From: the human T2T-CHM13v2.0 reference genome, Homo sapiens
Assembly (NCBI RefSeq): GCF_009914755.1
Contig: NC_060925.1
DNA length: 64,000 nt
Reading direction: 5' to 3' (one strand)
Shown: in pieces, positions 38,330 through 49,074 of the stretch
Position numbering within the stretch: the stretch's first letter is position 1
Layout: every line of letters begins with the position of its first letter
Notes under the pieces: generated by a model
Databases searched by the model: none
What the model was told of the DNA's origin: nothing
Seen by the model: the letters and a program-made list of their open reading frames with translations, nothing else
Made by a program: the position numbers and the translations under genes

Positions 38330-38830
38330 TCCACTCGGTCCGACGCCCTCGGTGCCCCGCCGGGTACGGTGGCTGGGCGCGGGGAGCGGGGGGCGGCGCC
38401 GGCGGGGCCCCGGGCAGGGGCGGGGTCGGGGCGCGGACAAAACCGCCGCGGGGCGGCGGGGTGGCGGACGCGGCCATGGAGGCCGAGGGCTGCCGCTACC
38501 AATTTCGGGTCGCGCTGCTGGGGGACGCGGCGGTGGGCAAGACGTCGCTGCTGCGGAGCTACGTGGCAGGCGCGCCTGGCGCCCCGGAGCCGGAGCCCGA
38601 GCCCGAGCCCACGGTGGGCGCCGAGTGCTACCGCCGCGCGCTGCAGCTGCGGGCCGGGCCGCGGGTCAAGCTGCAACTCTGGGACACCGCGGGCCACGAG
38701 CGCTTCAGGTGCGGGTAGCCGGGGCGCGGGAGGGACTTCTGGTGGGGGGCTCGGTGAGCGTGCTTTAGGCCACGGCAACTCCCGAGAGGCCAACTCAGAG
38801 GTCAGGCGGAGGGCGAGGTCCCTGCCCTGG
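38330..38830. promoter_or_regulatory. CpG island and GC boxes at the RAB42 5' end
   Basis: Dense CpG, GGGGCGGGG boxes and G-runs at 38109-38126 and 38412-38431. Confidence 0.85.
38476..38708 (+). CDS. RAB42: RAB42 coding exon 1
   Basis: Kozak GCCATGG. Encodes MEAEGCRYQFRVALLGDAAVGKTS (P-loop)...WDTAGHERFR. AG|gtgcgg donor at 38709. Confidence 0.95.
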
Positions 38831-39657: not shown

Positions 39658-40081
39658 GTGCATCACCAGGTCCTTTTACCGGAATGTGGTGGGTGTCCTG
39701 CTGGTCTTTGATGTGACAAACAGGAAGTCCTTTGAACACATCCAAGACTGGCACCAGGAGGTCATGGCCACTCAGGGCCCGGACAAGGTCATCTTCCTGC
39801 TGGTTGGCCACAAGAGTGACCTGCAGAGCACCCGCTGTGTCTCAGCCCAGGAGGCCGAGGAGCTAGCTGCCTCCCTGGGCATGGCCTTCGTGGAGACCTC
39901 GGTTAAAAACAACTGCAATGTGGACCTGGCCTTTGACACCCTCGCTGATGCTATCCAGCAGGCCCTGCAGCAGGGGGACATCAAGCTAGAAGAGGGCTGG
40001 GGGGGTGTCCGGCTCATCCACAAGACCCAAATCCCCAGGTCCCCCAGCAGGAAGCAGCACTCAGGCCCATGCCAGTGTTGA
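39658..40081 (+). CDS. RAB42: RAB42 coding exon 2 (total 657 nt, 218 aa)
   Basis: ccccag acceptor. Encodes [13 protein letters not shown] and ETSVK, and ends in the CQC prenylation motif plus TGA. 233+424 nt is in frame. Confidence 0.96.
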
Positions 40082-40237
40082 CTCTAGGAGAGAAAGGGTT
40101 AAAGCAGTCCCAGCCTTAGCCCACCTGGTGGGATGGGGAGTGTTAATATCTCTCTGGAGGACAAATGACAGAAGGGTTCATATAAACAGTATCCTGACAC
40201 AGTCATGCTTCCTGGATTTTGGAGTCGAGGCTTTCTA

Positions 40238-40630
<393 letters not shown>

Positions 40631-41039
40631 TCATAAAAGATCCCACCTTGAAGGGAGGTGGTGACCACAAATGAGACAGTGGACAGGATGTGCTCACCCA
40701 GAGCCTGCCGCGCTGTGAATTGAATGACAAAAGCTCTCATTCCCACTCCCTTTTTCTTGGCTGCGATGTGGCCACTCTGGCAGCATTCCTGGGCTCAGAC
40801 ACTGAGAAGCCAGCGTCAGGAAGCTGATGCATGGGCAAAGGCAGGTGCGGGGAATTCCAGGGGGAGCTTGGCTTGGAGGCTTCTTATGTCCTCAGGCTAA
40901 AATGATTCTGGGCATGGGATTAATATGTGACGTCAAACCCAGGGTTGCTGGCCAATGCCCCCCCGACCAGGCCCAGGGGCTGAAAAATGGATGTTGGAGG
41001 CTGGGATGAACATGAATGTGTAGCAACTATGTTGGGCAC

Positions 41040-41449
41040 ACAGTGGCCACTGTGATGAGCCACCAAGATCCCCCTTTCTGGCTGGGGAACCCATCAACCC
41101 TCTCCCCAGCTGCTGGAGTGCCACTGGATGATGGACTTCAGCTTGCCCCACTCTCTGGGAAAGGCCCTCCCTTCAGGGCAGCTTGTATCCAAAGTTCATC
41201 TCCTGGGGGGCCTTAAAGGACTCCCTCTTGCCCCAGCTCTGGACAACTCTGAAAGTCAAAACCAACTTTATCAGTCTCTGTGGGCTTCATTGAGGACACT
41301 GTTGTGACATCATAGCCAAGTTATCCCCTTGCCCAATCCTGCTTCCTTTTCTTCCCCAAACAGGTATCCATTTCAAGAATATCCCCTAATAAACATCTGC
41401 ACACTCATCTCCATCTCAGAATCTGCCTCCTGGTAACCTAACCTATGAT
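41040..41449 (+). mobile_element. LTR16-like ERVL solo LTR with AATAAA at 41388-41393
   Basis: The 3' part ccctaataaacatctgcacactcatctccatctcagaatctgcctcctggtaacctaaccta resembles the LTR16 R/U5 end. 5' limit approximate. Confidence 0.7.
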
Positions 41450-42114
41450 GGGAACTGCTAGGCAGGGAATGTCCTGGGAGCAATTAGGGAAGGCTTCATG
41501 GAAGAGACACTGTTTATGTTAGGCCGAATCTCAGCAGGTGTAGGGCTTAGTGGGTATCATTGTGCTGTAGCAAAAAGCACAGCCACTTTGCTGGGTGCAG
41601 TGGCTCACGCCTGTAATCCCAGCACTTTCGGAGGCCTAGGCAGGCAGTTCACTTGAGGTTGGGAGTTCGAGACCAGTATGGCCAACACGGCGAAACCCTG
41701 TCTATACTAAAAATACAAAAATTAGCTGGGTGTGGTGGCTCATGCCTGTAATCCCAGCACTTAGGAGGCTGAAGCATGAGAATTGCTTGAGCCCAGGAGG
41801 CAGAGGTTGCAGCGAGCCACGATCCCGCCACTGCACTCCAGCCCTCTAACTTGGGTGGCAGAGCAACACTCCGTCTCATAAAAAAAGAAAAAAGCATAGT
41901 CACTTAACTCTCTTTTGTGACCTTGAGCTAGTTACTTGGCCTCCTTGAGCCTTGGTTTCCTCCTCAGTCAGTAACATGAGACTGATAATCCCTCCCTCCT
42001 AGGGTTCTTAGAAGGTTTTCAGAATGAGTTTCTTAGCTTCCTCCCCATGGAGAGGGGGCTGAGGGGTCTTCCTGTGCACTTGGTCCTGCCTCTTTTTTTT
42101 TTTAAACCCATAAA

Positions 42115-42830
<716 letters not shown>

Positions 42831-42991
42831 CTGCCTCTTCTTTTTAAACATCCTTATTCATCCTTGTGACGTGGTGAGGTTGGCACAATCATCCCCATTT
42901 CACAGATAAGAAAGCTGGGGCCAGGAGAGGAAAATTACTTGCTTTAGGGTATCTTTTCATTCCTTCATCGTTTTTTTTTTTTTTTCCTTAG

Positions 42992-43138
<147 letters not shown>

Positions 43139-43141
43139 TAA

Positions 43142-43701
<560 letters not shown>

Positions 43702-43808
43702 TGAGTAGCTGGGACTACAGGCGCACGCCACCACGCCCAGATAATTTTTTGTATTTTTAGTAGAGATGGGGTTTCACCATGTTAGCCAGGATGGTCTCGA
43801 TCTTCTGA

Positions 43809-44472
<664 letters not shown>

Positions 44473-46503
44473 TAAAGGTGCGTGCCACCACGCCCAGCTA
44501 ATTTTTTGTATTTTTAGTAGAGATGGGGTTTCACCATGTTAGCCAGGATGGTCTCAATCTTCTGACCTCGTGATCCGCCCGCCTCGGCCTCCCAAAGTGC
44601 TGGGATTACAGGTGTGAGCCACCGTGCCCGGCCCTACCAGAGGCTTATTATTAAACCCACAGCAACCCCGTGAGGTTGGGCTGATCTTGTCCATTTCACA
44701 GACCTCAGCTCCAAGACAGAAAACTCATGTGGCTAAAGTGATGAACCCAGGCCAGCTCCAATAATCTTGTCCACTGCCTCAGGCCAGCCCCAGGGTGGGT
44801 CCTTTCTCAAACTTCAGCGCTCCAGTCCTACCCTCACTATCCCCCTCAGTGTGGCAAAATCTCGAGAGGCTGTAAGTGGCTTTGATGGGTGTGTGCCTGC
44901 ACAAGCAGAGCGAGCCCAGGCTACAGGAAAGGCAGAGGCACCAGTGTACATTGTGCCACTCCTTTTGAGTCTCAGGCCTCTAGGTTCTCCTGTAATTCAG
45001 CATCCACACTGACCCAGAGGGATCTTTTTAAAGGACAGTTTTGGCTTGGCCGCCTCCCTGCTAGAATCCTCCTATGGCCCCACACCTACAGCATAAAATC
45101 CAAATCCTTTTGCTCTAATCCAAGCCTTTCATCACCTGGAGCCAGCTGCATCATCTCTAACCACTGGCCCAGGCGGCCAAATTCTGAACCAGGTGCAGCT
45201 CTGGACTTCGCATATGCTGTTTTCTGTGCCGGGAAAGTCCCAGCTCTCTCTCTCTCCCTGTGTTATCTGATCTGCCTGCAACACTCAGGTAGACATCACT
45301 TCCTTTTAACCACATTATCCCAGCTGCCAAAAATAGGACAGGCTTTGCTGTCAAACCTGGTTTGAATCTCAGTTCCACTAACAGTGGGACCCTGACTAAC
45401 TCACTTTATCTTTCTAAGCCTCAGTGATTTAAAAATGGGGATAATAGGCCGGGCGCGGTGGCTCACGCGTGTAATCCCAGCACTTTGGGAGGCCGAGGCG
45501 GGTGGAACACGAGGTCAAGAGATCGAGACCATCCTGGCTAACACCATGAAGCCCCGTTTCTACCAAAAAATATAAAAAATTAGCCGGGCGTGATGGCACG
45601 CGCCTGTGGTGCCACCCCAACCCTGAGGGCCAAGGAGAGAACTCATCCACCAGGAAGGGAGGGGTCAAGAGAAGGGGCCTTGGAGGCCATTTAGAAGGAT
45701 GGACACTGGACTAAGGGCACAGGTCTGAGTCCTGACCTGCCTAGTGACCTTGGACAGGTCACACGACCTCTCCAGATCTCAGCATTATCTGTAAAATAAG
45801 GGCCACATTGGATGACCTCTGAAGGCCCCTTCTTTTGTAACTCCAGGTAATTGTAAGACCCTAGCTTAACTCTGCTTTCCTCCTCCCAGCTTCACGCCAT
45901 GCAGGCACAGGGGATTCTTTCCAGGATGGCTCCCTGGTCCCAGATGGCTCCTTCTGTGTCCTTGGAACTCATCCTGTTGTTACAGCCAGACCCTGCCCCT
46001 GTCTTTTGGTTAACTCCTTCTTGGGAAAACGTCTCAAGTCTTTTTTTTTAGATGGAGTCTCACTCTTGTCGCCCAGACTGGGGTGCAGTGGTATGATCTT
46101 GGCTCACTGCAGCCTCCACCTCCTGGGTTCCTGCTATTCTCCTGCCTCAGCCTCCCGAGTAGCTAAGATTACAGGCACATGCCACCACGCCCGGCTAATT
46201 TTTGTATTTTTAGTAGAAACAAGGTTTCGCTATGTTGGCCAGGCTGGTCTCGAACTCCTGACCTCAGGTGATCCACCTGCCCTGGCCTCCCAAAGTGCTG
46301 GGATTACAGGTGTGAGCCACCACACCCGGACTCAAATCTTATCACCTTTAGTCCAAAAAACTGTAGCAACTTCCGGCTAGTATCCCTCCTGCCTGCTTCC
46401 AATTCCACCTTCCACACTGGCAGCCAGAGAGGCTTTTAACATGCAAACATAGTTACACCACTCCTTCATCTGAAACTTCAGGGGTTCCCAAAGGCTCTGC
46501 AGT

Positions 46504-46554
46504 GGTGTGTGTGTGTGTTTTTTTTTAATGTGTGTGTGTGTGTGTGTGTGTGTG
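46504..46554. repeat. Interrupted (TG)n microsatellite
   Basis: gtgtgtgtgtgtgt-T run-aatgtgtgtg...tg. Confidence 0.9.
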
Positions 46555-47761
46555 CAGTGGTTTTCAAAACTTTTTATCTGTTTTGAGCATTAGAATCCTC
46601 ATCTGACGGAATGTTTCTCAGAGCCCTAAAAATGTCCAACAGTTAAGAAAGATGTTATGCAGACTGAAGAAAAGTGGAAAGCTTGGAACCAGCCTGCTGG
46701 GCCTCCCACACTACAGCCTGCAACACACACACAACACACAGCAGCCTCCAAGGCATGGGCACTGAACTGAGGGCTCCACGTACCTTCATAAGAAGCCAGG
46801 ATAGGCTGGGCACAGTGGCTCACACCTATAATCCCAGCACTTTGCGAGGCAGCGGTAAGCAGATTGCTTGAGCCCAGGATTTTGAGACCAGCCGGGGCAA
46901 CATGGCAAAACTCTCTGTTTTTAAAAAATTAATTAAAAAAAAAGGAGGCCAGGCATGGTGGCTCACACCTGTAATCCCAGCACTTTGGGAGGCAGAGGTA
47001 GGAGAATCACCTGAGGTCAGGAGTTAGAGGCCACCCTGGCCAACATTATAAAACCCCGTCTCTACTAAAAATACAAAAATTAGTCGGATGTAGTGGCGCA
47101 CCTGTAATCCCAGCTACTTGGGAGGCTGAGACACAAGAATAGCTTGAACCCGGGAGGTGGAGGTTGCAAGAGCCGAGATCGCATCACTTCATTCATTCCA
47201 GCCTGGGTGATAGAGTGAGACTCTCTCTCTCTCTCTTTTTTTTTTTTTAGATGGAGTCTCCCTCTGTCGCCCAGTCTGGAGTGCAGTGGTGCAATCTCGG
47301 CTCACTACAACCTCCGCCTCCCAGGTTCAAGCAATTCTCCTGCCTCAGCTGCCTGGCTAATTTTTTATATTTTTAGTAGAGACGGTTTCGCCATGTTGGC
47401 CAGGCTGATCTTGAACTCCTGACCTCAAGTGATCCACCTGCCTTGGCCTCCCAGAGTGCTGAGATTACAGGCTTGAGCCACTGCGCCCGGTCACCTGGGT
47501 CTGTTTTTATTCATCATTGTATCCCTCTGCTTAGGACAGGCATGGGATTATAAATACTTGCTGAGTGAATGAACAAGTCCCTCAATATGCAGATAGGACA
47601 AGACTGAGATAGATGACGCCACTTACTTGTCACACTGCAAATCAAGAACTGGGGTCTTTTGATTCTACCTCAGCTCTTTCCATTAAACTTCCCCGATTCC
47701 TGTGTTCCCTTCTGTCTTAGTGGAGATCTCAAAACTAATTCTAGATTCCTTGGCTGCCAAG

Positions 47762-48181
47762 GTCAGTGACTCATCGTACTACTGAAACCCAGCTGGAGGC
47801 CCCTTGGTGTTTGGTATCACCAACAGAATATCCTTTATGAGTGTCACCACTGGCATCAGGAGGTTCTGGGGAAAGTGAAACCCTTCAGCATCCTCGTCCT
47901 GATGGTTGGCCACAAGAGTGACCTGTTGGTGAGCACTGGGTGACACCACAGGGAAAGAAGCTGGCTGCCTCTTTGGGGCATTGAAACTTCAGCCAAGAGC
48001 AACAGTAACATTAGCACAGCCTCTGAGGAGCTCACTCAGTGTATCTGTGAGACTGTGAAGTGGGGGGGACATGGGATCTAACTCAGGGTGGGAGGGAATT
48101 TTGAAATGCAGGGTCTCATCCTGGGCCAAGCTTCAGGACGCAGAGGACCAAAGCAAATCAAGGTGGCTGTGCCTGTGCTAG
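47762..48181 (+). pseudogene. Decayed Rab39/Rab42-subfamily terminal exon (unprocessed pseudogene fragment)
   Basis: With frameshifts it translates as SVTH-YY*NPAGGPLVFGITNRISF...WHQEVLGKVKPFSILVLMVGHKSDL...KKLAASLG-IETSAKSNSNI...GWEGI...RWLCLC*. 23-nt identity to RAB42 exon 2 (47903-47925 vs 39801-39823). Same-phase AG acceptor. Confidence 0.88.
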
Positions 48182-48516
48182 TGACCCTTGGGTAGGACAG
48201 CCATCCTCCCTAGAGCCCACAGAACTCTCACAATCCACAAGGGCCATGCTGGGCCCAGGACAGGATGATGCTAGGTGCCACTGAAGGACATGACCCAGAG
48301 GTCTGGAAGGCGCCTGGTTTCTTCTGCATGATGGTGAAAACACCAGGATCAAAGATAACAGCAACTAAGAAGAGATGGGCACCTGCACAGACATGCCTAT
48401 CCTGAGGACAGGGGCCTACTCCCATCCTTTCTCAGGGACAGGGACAAACACAGCTTTCTCCAGGAGTTCCAGAAGAGCAGGTCAAAAAGGGTTTTTAGGC
48501 CGGGCGCGGTGGCTCA

Positions 48517-48870
<354 letters not shown>

Positions 48871-49074
48871 TTATGGCCGAGAAGCTGGACTCAAACTCCT
48901 GCTGATGTTATGGCCTCCCTTGGGGTAAAATGATGGAAAATCCCTGAGTTTTTCTCAAACACCAAAATGAATAACGATGCTGCCACCTGCTGACTAGAGA
49001 GCTACAATCCAGGCTTGCTTGTCCTGACTCCCTCTGGGATTTCAAAGGTACCCTGTCTTTCGATTAATAACTTC

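What the first reader, a model, noticed from the sequence alone, without database searches (positions are those of the whole stretch)
47762..48181. Hidden fossil of a second Rab39/42-family gene between RAB42 and TAF12
Seen: a 420-nt segment missed by the ORF track aligns colinearly with RAB42 exon 2 (424 nt). It has a same-phase acceptor (AAG|G TCA) and the motifs YYxN, LVFxxTNRxSF, WHQEV, VGHKSDL, LAASLG, ETSAK and GWEG. It ends in an intact CXC geranylgeranylation motif (CLC*). Lesions are TGA at 47783 (probable CGA>TGA) and frameshifts near 47775, 47850, 47929, 47979 and 48068. Several residues (SVT-YY, GG, ITNR, ETSAK, GWEG, CLC) look more like Rab39 than RAB42. Inference: this is not a recent RAB42 copy or a retrocopy. 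It is probably an ancient tandem paralog, a unitary pseudogene whose orthologue may survive as a 'Rab39B-like' gene in non-mammalian vertebrates.
Basis: partly seen in the sequence, partly recalled or inferred. Interest (0 to 1): 0.85.

Follow-up and report, generated by a model that had tools for sequence, protein, structure and literature searches.

The report
Dead Rab GTPase gene beside RAB42
Between RAB42 and TAF12 lies the decayed last exon of a second, ancient Rab39/42-type GTPase gene that is still intact in marsupials, reptiles, birds, amphibians and fish, so humans have lost a membrane-traffic gene that most other vertebrates keep.

Summary
Window 47762-48181 (+) is a broken Rab39/42-type second coding exon. 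It has the same-phase AG acceptor as RAB42 exon 2, one TGA, at least five frameshifts, and a CXC-stop end.

The exon is only 41-46% identical to human RAB42, RAB39A and RAB39B. It is 65-68% identical to predicted proteins of three placentals (Talpa, Suncus, Equus) and 52-54% to five marsupial 'Rab-39B-like' proteins.

In a 40-row tree it sits inside that mammalian group (100/100), which belongs to a vertebrate-wide clade labelled 'Rab-39B-like', 'RB39B' or 'Rab-42b'. That clade is separate from amniote RAB42.

Read-through gene models in a rattlesnake and in a bird-like record join RAB42 to this paralogue in the human order. No intact copy and no first exon survive anywhere in the human genome.

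It is therefore a unitary pseudogene of an old tandem paralogue of RAB42, and has probably been dead since early placental evolution. The supplied RefSeq table does not list it, and six searches of open papers found nothing on it. GENCODE could not be checked. This is a solid but modest find: a new member of a known kind.

The parts
47760..47761 (+). Splice acceptor AG of the relic exon. The exon starts at 47762 with one base that completes a split Arg codon.
   Evidence: codon layout. Same phase as the RAB42 exon 2 acceptor at 39656-57/39658. Alignments with full-length orthologues begin at this residue.
47762..48181 (+). Decayed second (last) coding exon of the lost RAB42 paralogue ('Rab-39B-like'/'Rab-42b' clade). 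It is read in frames 0>2>1>0>1>2>0>2 and ends CLC-TAG.
   Evidence: Identity is 96-103 of 142-158 aligned residues to Talpa, Suncus and Equus. Tree placement.
47772..47773 (+). Remnant 'CA' of an Arg codon: a 1-nt deletion and the first frameshift.
   Evidence: Orthologues read SVT-R-SYY.
47783..47785 (+). In-frame TGA at a position that is Arg in all 36 clade and family members aligned (YYRN). A CGA>TGA change is plausible.
47846..47850 (+). A -1 frameshift between ...SFMSVT and WHQEV.
47905..47925 (+). VGHKSDL, the G4 guanine-specificity motif (the HKxD form typical of Rab39/42). It is intact.
   Evidence: A 35-nt stretch here is 91% identical to RAB42 at DNA level.
47926..47930 (+). A -1 frameshift after VGHKSDL. 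One codon is also missing further on (VTP-QGKK).
47979..47979 (+). A single C stands where orthologues have three codons (A/T-R-Y): an 8-nt deletion and frameshift.
47983..47997 (+). ETSAK, the G5 motif. It is intact.
48059..48070 (+). A +1 frameshift inside a run of seven G.
48116..48116 (+). A +1 frameshift relative to the Talpa and Suncus orthologues. After it, HPGPSFRTQRTKAN is read in frame 0.
   Evidence: (19 of 26 residues identical to Talpa in that frame).
48159..48184 (+). Junction back to frame 2, giving R-W-L-C-L-C, then TAG (48179-81) directly followed by TGA (48182-84). Marsupials and a caecilian end W-K-C-P-C-W-stop, so TAG probably replaces the final Trp codon and TGA is the ancestral stop.
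   Evidence: DNA; orthologue C-termini. The ancestral state is an inference.

Best explanation
The segment is the last exon of a unitary pseudogene.

Origin. Vertebrates ancestrally carried a second Rab39/42-subfamily GTPase gene immediately downstream of RAB42, on the same strand and convergent with TAF12. Automated annotation calls the living gene 'Rab-39B-like', 'RB39B' or, in ray-finned fishes, 'Rab-42b'.

Loss. In the lineage leading to humans the gene was inactivated long ago. Exon 1, which encodes the P-loop, switch I and the WDTAGQE switch II motif, is no longer detectable. Exon 2 drifted neutrally and picked up one nonsense codon, about seven frameshifting indels, two in-frame indels and near-complete CpG loss. 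It makes no Rab protein and has no coding function.

Shown versus inferred. Shown: the homology, the lesions, the clade membership and the absence of any intact human copy. Inferred: the timing, near or before the primate-rodent split, and the order of the lesions.
For: 1. Similarity grades with phylogeny. DP scores: Equus 391, Talpa 376, Suncus 344; five marsupials 276-287; sauropsids, amphibians and fish of the same clade 158-249. Human RAB39B scores 189, RAB39A 180 and RAB42 175. Shuffles give a mean of about 30.
2. Tree of 40 rows and 143 columns. The pseudo-exon falls in a placental set (97/94), a mammalian set (100/100) and a tetrapod set (99/97) of this clade, and the species tree is recovered inside the clade. 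Placement is the same when the reading is guided by RAB39B or by RAB42.
3. AU tests. Grouping with RAB39A/B is rejected (p 0.0057). Grouping with amniote RAB42 is disfavoured (p 0.045).
4. Both genes coexist in the same species: Sphenodon, Salvator, Polypterus and 5 marsupials. In all 5 of 5 marsupials the two proteins sit on contigs of identical length.
5. Tandem order. Crotalus horridus model P0242 is RAB42-type at residues 19-183 (75.5% to Sceloporus RAB42) and of this clade at residues 223-436 (81.3% to Rhineura). P0099 joins a RAB42-type exon 2 to an exon 2 of this clade.
6. Searching the human genome with the Talpa protein gave 60 matches. None is above 59% identity and there is no intact orthologue. 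Exon 1 searches found only RAB42's own exon 1 in the window.
7. Signs of neutral decay. CpG observed/expected is 0.11 over 47600-48300, against 0.93 at the RAB42 promoter. The pseudo-exon keeps 61 of 80 residues at sites where Talpa, Suncus and at least 4 of 5 marsupials agree.
Against: - Synteny in other species is indirect: fused gene models and equal contig lengths only. No other vertebrate DNA could be read.
- The AU test against a RAB42 grouping is only marginal (p 0.045).
- The pseudo-exon is a long branch (0.4-0.8).
- Rab39 is represented by two human sequences only, and only exon-2 residues were used.
- 'Intact' orthologues are predicted proteins. Suncus is flagged LOW QUALITY and the Equus model is itself degenerate.
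- Pfam found nothing in four stop-free fragments of 21-35 aa, which are too short to be informative.
- GENCODE and pseudogene databases could not be consulted, so the locus may already be catalogued.
Confidence: 0.92

Rival explanations
1. It is a fragment of a fairly recent duplication of RAB42 itself, either a segmental duplicate or the product of gene conversion, that then decayed.
For: It lies 7.7 kb downstream of RAB42 on the same strand. It shares WHQEV, VGHKSDL and LAASLG with RAB42, and a 35-nt stretch is 91% identical.
Against: Identity to RAB42 is only 54/130, below its identity to RAB39A (60/131) and far below its identity to Talpa (96/142). In the tree it lies in a different clade, with 100/100 support. 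Forcing it with RAB42 costs 17.8 lnL (p-AU 0.045). The DNA search finds no second copy.
Confidence: 0.02
2. It is a processed retrocopy of RAB39A, RAB39B or RAB42 mRNA that landed here by chance.
For: The genome does hold a RAB42 retrocopy with a 221-codon open frame on contig C14. Rab39-like residues are present.
Against: Similarity begins exactly at an AG acceptor in the family's conserved intron phase. The sequence just upstream has no likeness to exon 1. Grouping with RAB39A/B is rejected (p-AU 0.0057). The position matches the tandem order seen in the snake and bird-like read-through models.
Confidence: 0.01
3. The coding function is dead, but the relic now serves another role, for example as part of a non-coding transcript or as a regulatory element for RAB42 or TAF12.
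For: In the supplied table, RefSeq functional elements flank it (enhancers at 45037-45618 and 48401-48901). It lies 630 bp from the TAF12 3' end.
Against: Neither enhancer overlaps 47762-48184. CpG observed/expected of 0.11 and the lesion load fit neutral drift. No expression or conservation data were available here.
Confidence: 0.05

Closest known systems
Vertebrate 'Rab-39B-like' / 'RB39B' / teleost 'Rab-42b' genes (for example Talpa occidentalis P0239, Gracilinanus agilis P0232, Sphenodon P0188, Labeo rohita P0286)
   Same: Orthologous clade. Shared features are the SVTRSYYRN-type start of exon 2, AGG, KVKPF, VGHKSDL, LAASLG, ETSAKS-SN, EW[ED]GV, and a C-x-C(-W) end. Identity is 65-68% to the placental members.
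   Different: The human copy lacks exon 1 and carries a stop and about seven frameshifts. The living genes are 211-223-residue Ras-family proteins (Pfam PF00071, E 1e-52). The names are automated labels, and no experimental study of this gene was found.
Human RAB42 (window 38476-38708 and 39658-40081)
   Same: Tandem neighbour on the same strand, with the same two-coding-exon structure and intron phase. Member of the same Rab39/42 subfamily; the 2020 Rab review groups Rab39 and Rab42 as paralogues (PMC7818423, passages read).
   Different: A paralogue, not the parent: 41.5% identity. It belongs to a separate clade that also contains reptile RAB42, so the split predates amniotes.
Human RAB39A and RAB39B (loci L004/L034 and L005/L035, named from recalled chromosomal positions; Rab39B structure 6s5f)
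   Same: Same subfamily. The marsupial orthologue's best solved relative is Rab39B (E 8.8e-73). The pseudo-exon is 44-46% identical to them.
   Different: They are on other chromosomes. Grouping with them is rejected (p-AU 0.0057).
RAB42 retrocopy on contig C14 (L003/L033)
   Same: Another non-RefSeq-window relative of RAB42 in the same genome.
   Different: It is intronless, 96-97% identical to RAB42, and keeps a 221-codon open frame. It is young and processed, whereas this locus is an old duplicated gene with an intron boundary.

Membership tests
Rab/Ras small GTPase (Pfam PF00071) | G4 [NH]KxD and G5 ETSAK nucleotide-binding motifs | tested here: met
   VGHKSDL at 47905-47925 and ETSAK at 47983-47997. 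Intact orthologues match PF00071 at E 1e-52.
Rab/Ras small GTPase (Pfam PF00071) | G1 P-loop, G2 switch I and G3 WDTAGQE (encoded by exon 1) | tested here: not met
   No exon-1 relic was found in 40100-47770 or anywhere in the window apart from RAB42's own. The locus is therefore a gene remnant, not a gene.
Rab/Ras small GTPase (Pfam PF00071) | Profile match of the translated fragments themselves | tested here: inconclusive
   Four stop-free fragments of 21-35 aa gave 0 Pfam families at E<=1. They are too short for the test to decide.
Rab39/42 subfamily, 'Rab-39B-like'/'Rab-42b' clade | Phylogenetic placement inside the clade, apart from RAB42 and RAB39A/B | tested here: met
   Support of 97/94, 100/100 and 99/97 for the nested sets. 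The result is robust to the guide protein.
Rab39/42 subfamily, 'Rab-39B-like'/'Rab-42b' clade | Conserved position downstream of RAB42 on the same strand | tested here: inconclusive
   In human, yes. No genomic DNA of other vertebrates was readable.
Unitary pseudogene | Disabled reading frame | tested here: met
   One TGA, about seven frameshifts, and exon 1 missing.
Unitary pseudogene | No functional copy of the same gene elsewhere in the genome | tested here: met
   The Talpa protein against the whole T2T genome gave 60 matches. The best are the RAB39A/B exons (55-59%) and RAB42 with its retrocopy (45%).
Unitary pseudogene | Functional orthologue in other species | not testable with these tools
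   Intact predicted proteins with short branches (0.03-0.11) in marsupials, Talpa and Suncus suggest purifying selection. Function and expression were not tested.
Rab C-terminal prenylation box | Cysteine motif (CXC/CC) at the extreme C-terminus | tested here: inconclusive
   C-L-C-TAG is present at 48170-48181. Relative to the placental orthologues it is reached only through two offsetting frameshifts.

The most novel reading that the evidence does not exclude
The loss may have begun with one lesion shared by boreoeutherian mammals. All four placental sequences (human relic, Talpa, Suncus, Equus) read ...K-A-x-x-G-G-C... through the place where marsupials and a caecilian end W-K-C-P-C-W-stop. 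In the human DNA, the marsupial-like W-x-C-x-C ending followed by a stop lies one frame off. This suggests a frameshifting deletion just before the prenylation box in their common ancestor.

If so, moles and shrews have kept an otherwise well-conserved Rab with a non-canonical, possibly unprenylated tail for about 90 My, while most other placentals let the gene decay. That would be a natural experiment on what a Rab can do without its lipid anchor.
Probability: 0.25. Interest if true: 0.55.

Novelty: new member of a known kind. Interest (0 to 1): 0.42.

Why it matters
It adds a lost gene to the human Rab inventory. The vertebrate Rab39/42 subfamily had at least four members (RAB39A, RAB39B, RAB42 and this tandem partner), and humans, apparently with most placentals, retain three.

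It also clarifies nomenclature. Proteins labelled 'Rab-39B-like', 'RB39B' and, in many birds, 'Rab-42' are orthologues of teleost 'Rab-42b', not of RAB39B or mammalian RAB42.

This bears on the use of zebrafish, chicken or opossum to model RAB42 or RAB39B biology. It also offers a dated gene-loss marker for placental phylogeny.

It is not a new kind of element, and nothing suggests a function in humans.

Tried and rejected
1. Exon 1 relic.
- RAB42, RAB39A and RAB39B exon-1 peptides against 40100-48300 at E<=100 gave only noise, much of it Alu-derived. There was a weak colinear cluster at 45016-45210 (E 0.26-5).
- Better queries (Talpa, Suncus, Equus, two marsupials) did not recover that cluster. 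The best DP scores were 29-36 on both strands, at shuffle level, and tblastn at E<=0.5 hit only RAB42's own exon 1. The cluster was rejected.

2. Echinops 'Rab-42-like' (P0113). I considered it as a placental orthologue but rejected it by eye from its sequence. It follows tenrec RAB42 and looks like a degraded RAB42 copy. It was not put in the tree.

3. Pfam on the four stop-free fragments: no hits.

5. Literature. Six searches found no paper describing this pseudogene or the paralogue: 'RAB42'+'pseudogene' (12 papers, listing only, none relevant by title or abstract); 'rab42b' (0 papers); Rab42/Rab39/paralog/vertebrate; Rab39B-like/rab42a/Rab39c/RAB42P (3 papers, irrelevant); Rab42+Rabifier; unitary pseudogene/Rab. 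Passages read in PMC7818423, PMC3425129 and PMC3192815 mention only Rab39 and Rab42 as one subfamily. Subscription journals, GENCODE, Ensembl gene trees and supplementary tables were not seen.

6. Dating by shared lesions was not possible, because there was no primate or other mammalian DNA. The structure prediction, complex prediction, ESM Atlas and representative-library tools were not used because the question did not need them.

Full report
**1. Is it there?**

Yes. Translating 47700-48260 in three frames shows Rab-type peptides that hop between frames. These are SYY*NPAGGPLVFGITNRISF (frame 2), WHQEVLGKVKPFSILVLMVGHKSDL (frame 1), KKLAASLG (frame 0), IETSAKSNSNIS... (frame 1) and SGWEG...RWLCLC* (frame 2).

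The RAB42 protein, taken from the window's own exons, hits two of these pieces in tblastn with a joint E of 6.7e-10. RAB42 exon 2 DNA matches 47891-47925 at 91% over 35 nt.

I wrote a protein-to-DNA dynamic programme that allows frameshifts.
- It aligns RAB42, RAB39A and RAB39B exon-2 peptides colinearly over 47774-48176/48178.
- The scores are 175, 180 and 189, with identities of 54/130, 60/131 and 57/131.
- For each of three queries (Talpa, RAB42, RAB39B), 100 shuffles of the DNA gave means of about 30 and a maximum of 53.

The RAB39A and RAB39B peptides came from the own-genome loci L004 and L005. I named those loci from my recollection of where the two genes lie.

The exon begins at 47762 after an AG at 47760-61. 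A single base completes a split codon, exactly as at RAB42's 39658. The 561-nt stretch has no second copy in the genome.

**2. What is it related to?**

A search of the large protein collection with RAB42's exon-2 peptide returned mammalian and reptilian RAB42 (166 proteins at E<=1e-10 among 196 candidates, 120 listed). It also returned an odd 233-residue record, P0099. P0099 is a RAB42-type exon 2 followed by a second, different Rab39/42-type exon 2 that resembles the pseudo-exon.

Searching with that second half (236 proteins among 271 candidates, 120 listed) opened up a large clade. Sources name it 'RB39B', 'Rab-39B-like', sometimes 'Rab-42' (birds), and 'Rab-42b' (ray-finned fishes). It includes birds, crocodilians, turtles, squamates, tuatara, caecilians, marsupials and one placental, the mole Talpa occidentalis.

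A third search used the Talpa protein (1567 proteins at E<=1e-30 among 2839 candidates, 120 listed).
- The only placental entries in that list were Talpa, Suncus etruscus (flagged LOW QUALITY) and an Equus asinus model labelled RAB42.
- Five marsupials were listed: Dromiciops, Gracilinanus, Trichosurus, Sminthopsis and Macrotis.
- Axolotl, lungfish, bichir, bowfin and many teleosts were also listed.
- No primate, rodent, carnivore, bat or cetartiodactyl protein appeared, although such orthologues should outrank the marsupial ones. Only 120 of the 1567 were shown, so this is an argument from ranking, not an exhaustive count.

**3. Orthology**

Aligned to the pseudo-exon, the scores fall with phylogenetic distance:

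| Query group | DP score | Identity |
|---|---|---|
| Equus | 391 | 103/158 |
| Talpa | 376 | 96/142 |
| Suncus | 344 | 91/134 |
| Five marsupials | 276-287 | 69-71 of 131-132 |
| Sauropsids, amphibians and fish of the clade | 158-249 | not tabulated here |
| Human RAB39B / RAB39A / RAB42 | 189 / 180 / 175 | 57/131, 60/131, 54/130 |
| Reptile, monotreme and marsupial RAB42 | 142-161 | not tabulated here |

The maximum-likelihood tree used exon-2 residues only (40 rows, 143 columns, LG+C20+F+G4).
- It puts the pseudo-exon with Talpa, Suncus and Equus (97/94).
- That set joins the marsupials (100/100), inside a tetrapod set of the clade (99/97).
- The species tree is broadly recovered within the clade.
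- Amniote RAB42 forms its own group (100/99) on a long stem (0.63).
- Ray-finned 'Rab-42a' proteins sit outside both groups, so their exact orthology is unresolved.

Placement is unchanged when the reading of the broken exon is guided by RAB39B or by RAB42 instead of a marsupial protein (quick method: the 9-row mammalian set at 100, the 20-row set at 96-97).

AU tests show that holding the pseudo-exon with RAB39A/B costs 24.9 lnL (p 0.0057). Holding it with amniote RAB42 costs 17.8 lnL (p 0.045, marginal).

Caveats: the pseudo-exon is a long branch (0.4-0.8), and Rab39 is represented by two human sequences.

**4. Tandem arrangement and age of the duplication**

Tuatara, tegu and bichir each have one protein of each kind. 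The split therefore predates amniotes and probably bony vertebrates.

In all 5 of 5 marsupials, the RAB42 protein and the 'Rab-39B-like' protein come from contigs of identical length, that is, from the same chromosome-scale contig.

Three read-through gene models show adjacency:
- Crotalus horridus P0242 is RAB42-type at residues 19-183 (75.5% to Sceloporus RAB42) and of this clade at 223-436 (81.3% to Rhineura). This is the human order and strand.
- P0099 is RAB42-type at residues 19-156 and of this clade at 152-233 (86% to an owl protein).
- Cirrhinus P0193 joins a divergent Rab to Rab-42b.

This evidence is indirect. No genomic DNA of another vertebrate was available.

**5. State of the human locus**

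The codon layout, read against the orthologues, gives these lesions:
- An Arg codon reduced to CA at 47772-73.
- TGA at 47783-85, in place of the invariant Arg of YYRN.
- A -1 shift near 47847-50.
- A -1 shift near 47927-30, with one codon lost soon after.
- Three codons replaced by a single C at 47979.
- A +1 shift in a run of seven G at 48059-70, and one extra codon in EGILK.
- A +1 shift at 48116.
- A further shift near 48159 that brings R-W-L-C-L-C-TAG-TGA back into the frame of GWEG.

Between them, the frame-0 peptide is 19/26 identical to Talpa.

Marsupials and a caecilian end W-K-C-P-C-W-stop. The human TAG-TGA therefore looks like a Trp codon turned into a stop, sitting directly before the ancestral stop. 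This is an inference.

Exon 1 is gone. Genome-wide and local searches with eight different exon-1 peptides found only RAB42's own exon 1 in the window. An exon as well preserved as exon 2 (about 68% to Talpa) would have been seen.

The whole human genome holds no intact orthologue. With the Talpa protein, the best matches are the RAB39A/B exons (55-59%) and RAB42 with its C14 retrocopy (45%).

**6. Timing (inferred)**

At the 80 sites where Talpa, Suncus and at least 4 of 5 marsupials agree, the human relic keeps 61 residues. The degenerate Equus model keeps 67 of 80.

About a quarter of constrained residues are replaced, there are about seven frameshifting indels in 420 nt, and CpG observed/expected is 0.11. 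By my recollection of mammalian neutral rates, these figures are what roughly the whole time since the boreoeutherian ancestor would give. That fits the absence of primate and rodent proteins.

The short branches of Talpa (0.10), Suncus (0.11) and the marsupials (0.03-0.10) suggest that those copies are still under constraint.

**7. An unexplained detail**

All three placental models read ...K-A-x-x-G-G-C-... past the point where marsupials end. In the human DNA, the marsupial-like ending lies in another frame. A frameshift just before the prenylation box may therefore be shared by boreoeutherians. Without their DNA this stays a hypothesis (see the novel case).

**8. Comparison with what is known**

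The intact orthologues are ordinary Ras-family proteins (PF00071, E about 1e-52). Their nearest solved structure is Rab39B, 6s5f (E 8.8e-73).

Reviews and evolutionary surveys that I read in passages treat Rab39 and Rab42 as one subfamily and mention no further member and no human pseudogene (PMC7818423, PMC3425129 and PMC3192815). Six full-text searches found nothing on 'rab42b', on 'Rab39B-like' in vertebrates, or on a RAB42-linked pseudogene.

The RefSeq table supplied with the finding lists nothing between RAB42 and TAF12. GENCODE, Ensembl gene trees and pseudogene catalogues could not be checked, so prior cataloguing cannot be excluded.

**9. Verdict**

The feature is a unitary pseudogene of an ancient tandem paralogue of RAB42. 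It is a new member of a known kind. It is of moderate interest for Rab evolution, gene nomenclature and the choice of model organisms, and it is not a functional element in humans as far as these data show.

Noticed in passing
Own genome G000:C14:84115972-84116619 (loci L003, L033), outside the window: An intronless RAB42 copy, 96-97% identical to RAB42, keeps a 221-codon open frame covering the whole protein. It looks like a young processed retrocopy with an intact ORF.
   Followed up: partly
window 45016-45210 (+), inside the RefSeq enhancer 45037-45618: Three exon-1 peptides (RAB42, RAB39A, RAB39B) gave weak colinear tblastn hits here (E 0.26-5; for example QVQLWTS against KLQLWDT). Closer queries from the orthologous clade did not reproduce them, so this is probably chance.
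   Followed up: yes
Protein P0259 (Equus asinus, labelled RAB42) against window 48105-48281: The donkey model is a degenerate member of the lost-paralogue clade: its P-loop and WDTAG motifs are altered and it has internal deletions. It reads 59 residues past the ancestral stop, 66% identical to the human frame-0 translation. It looks like a gene model built on a decaying locus and mislabelled RAB42.
   Followed up: partly
Protein P0113 (Echinops telfairi 'Rab-42-like'): A second tenrec RAB42-like protein, 62% identical to human RAB42 exon 2, with no P-loop region and a broken HKxD motif. It looks like a degraded copy of tenrec RAB42 and is unrelated to the paralogue studied here.
   Followed up: no
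Database names: The same orthologous clade carries at least six different automated names: RB39A, RB39B, Rab-39B, Rab-39B-like, Rab-42 and Rab-42b. Many bird 'Rab-42' entries belong to this clade, not to mammalian RAB42.
   Followed up: partly
window 42964-47494: Much of the stretch between RAB42 and the relic exon is Alu-type and other masked repeats (masked blocks 42964-43503, 43576-44311 and 46798-47494, plus Alu-like peptides in the hits). Repeat-mediated deletion is a plausible route for the loss of exon 1.
   Followed up: no
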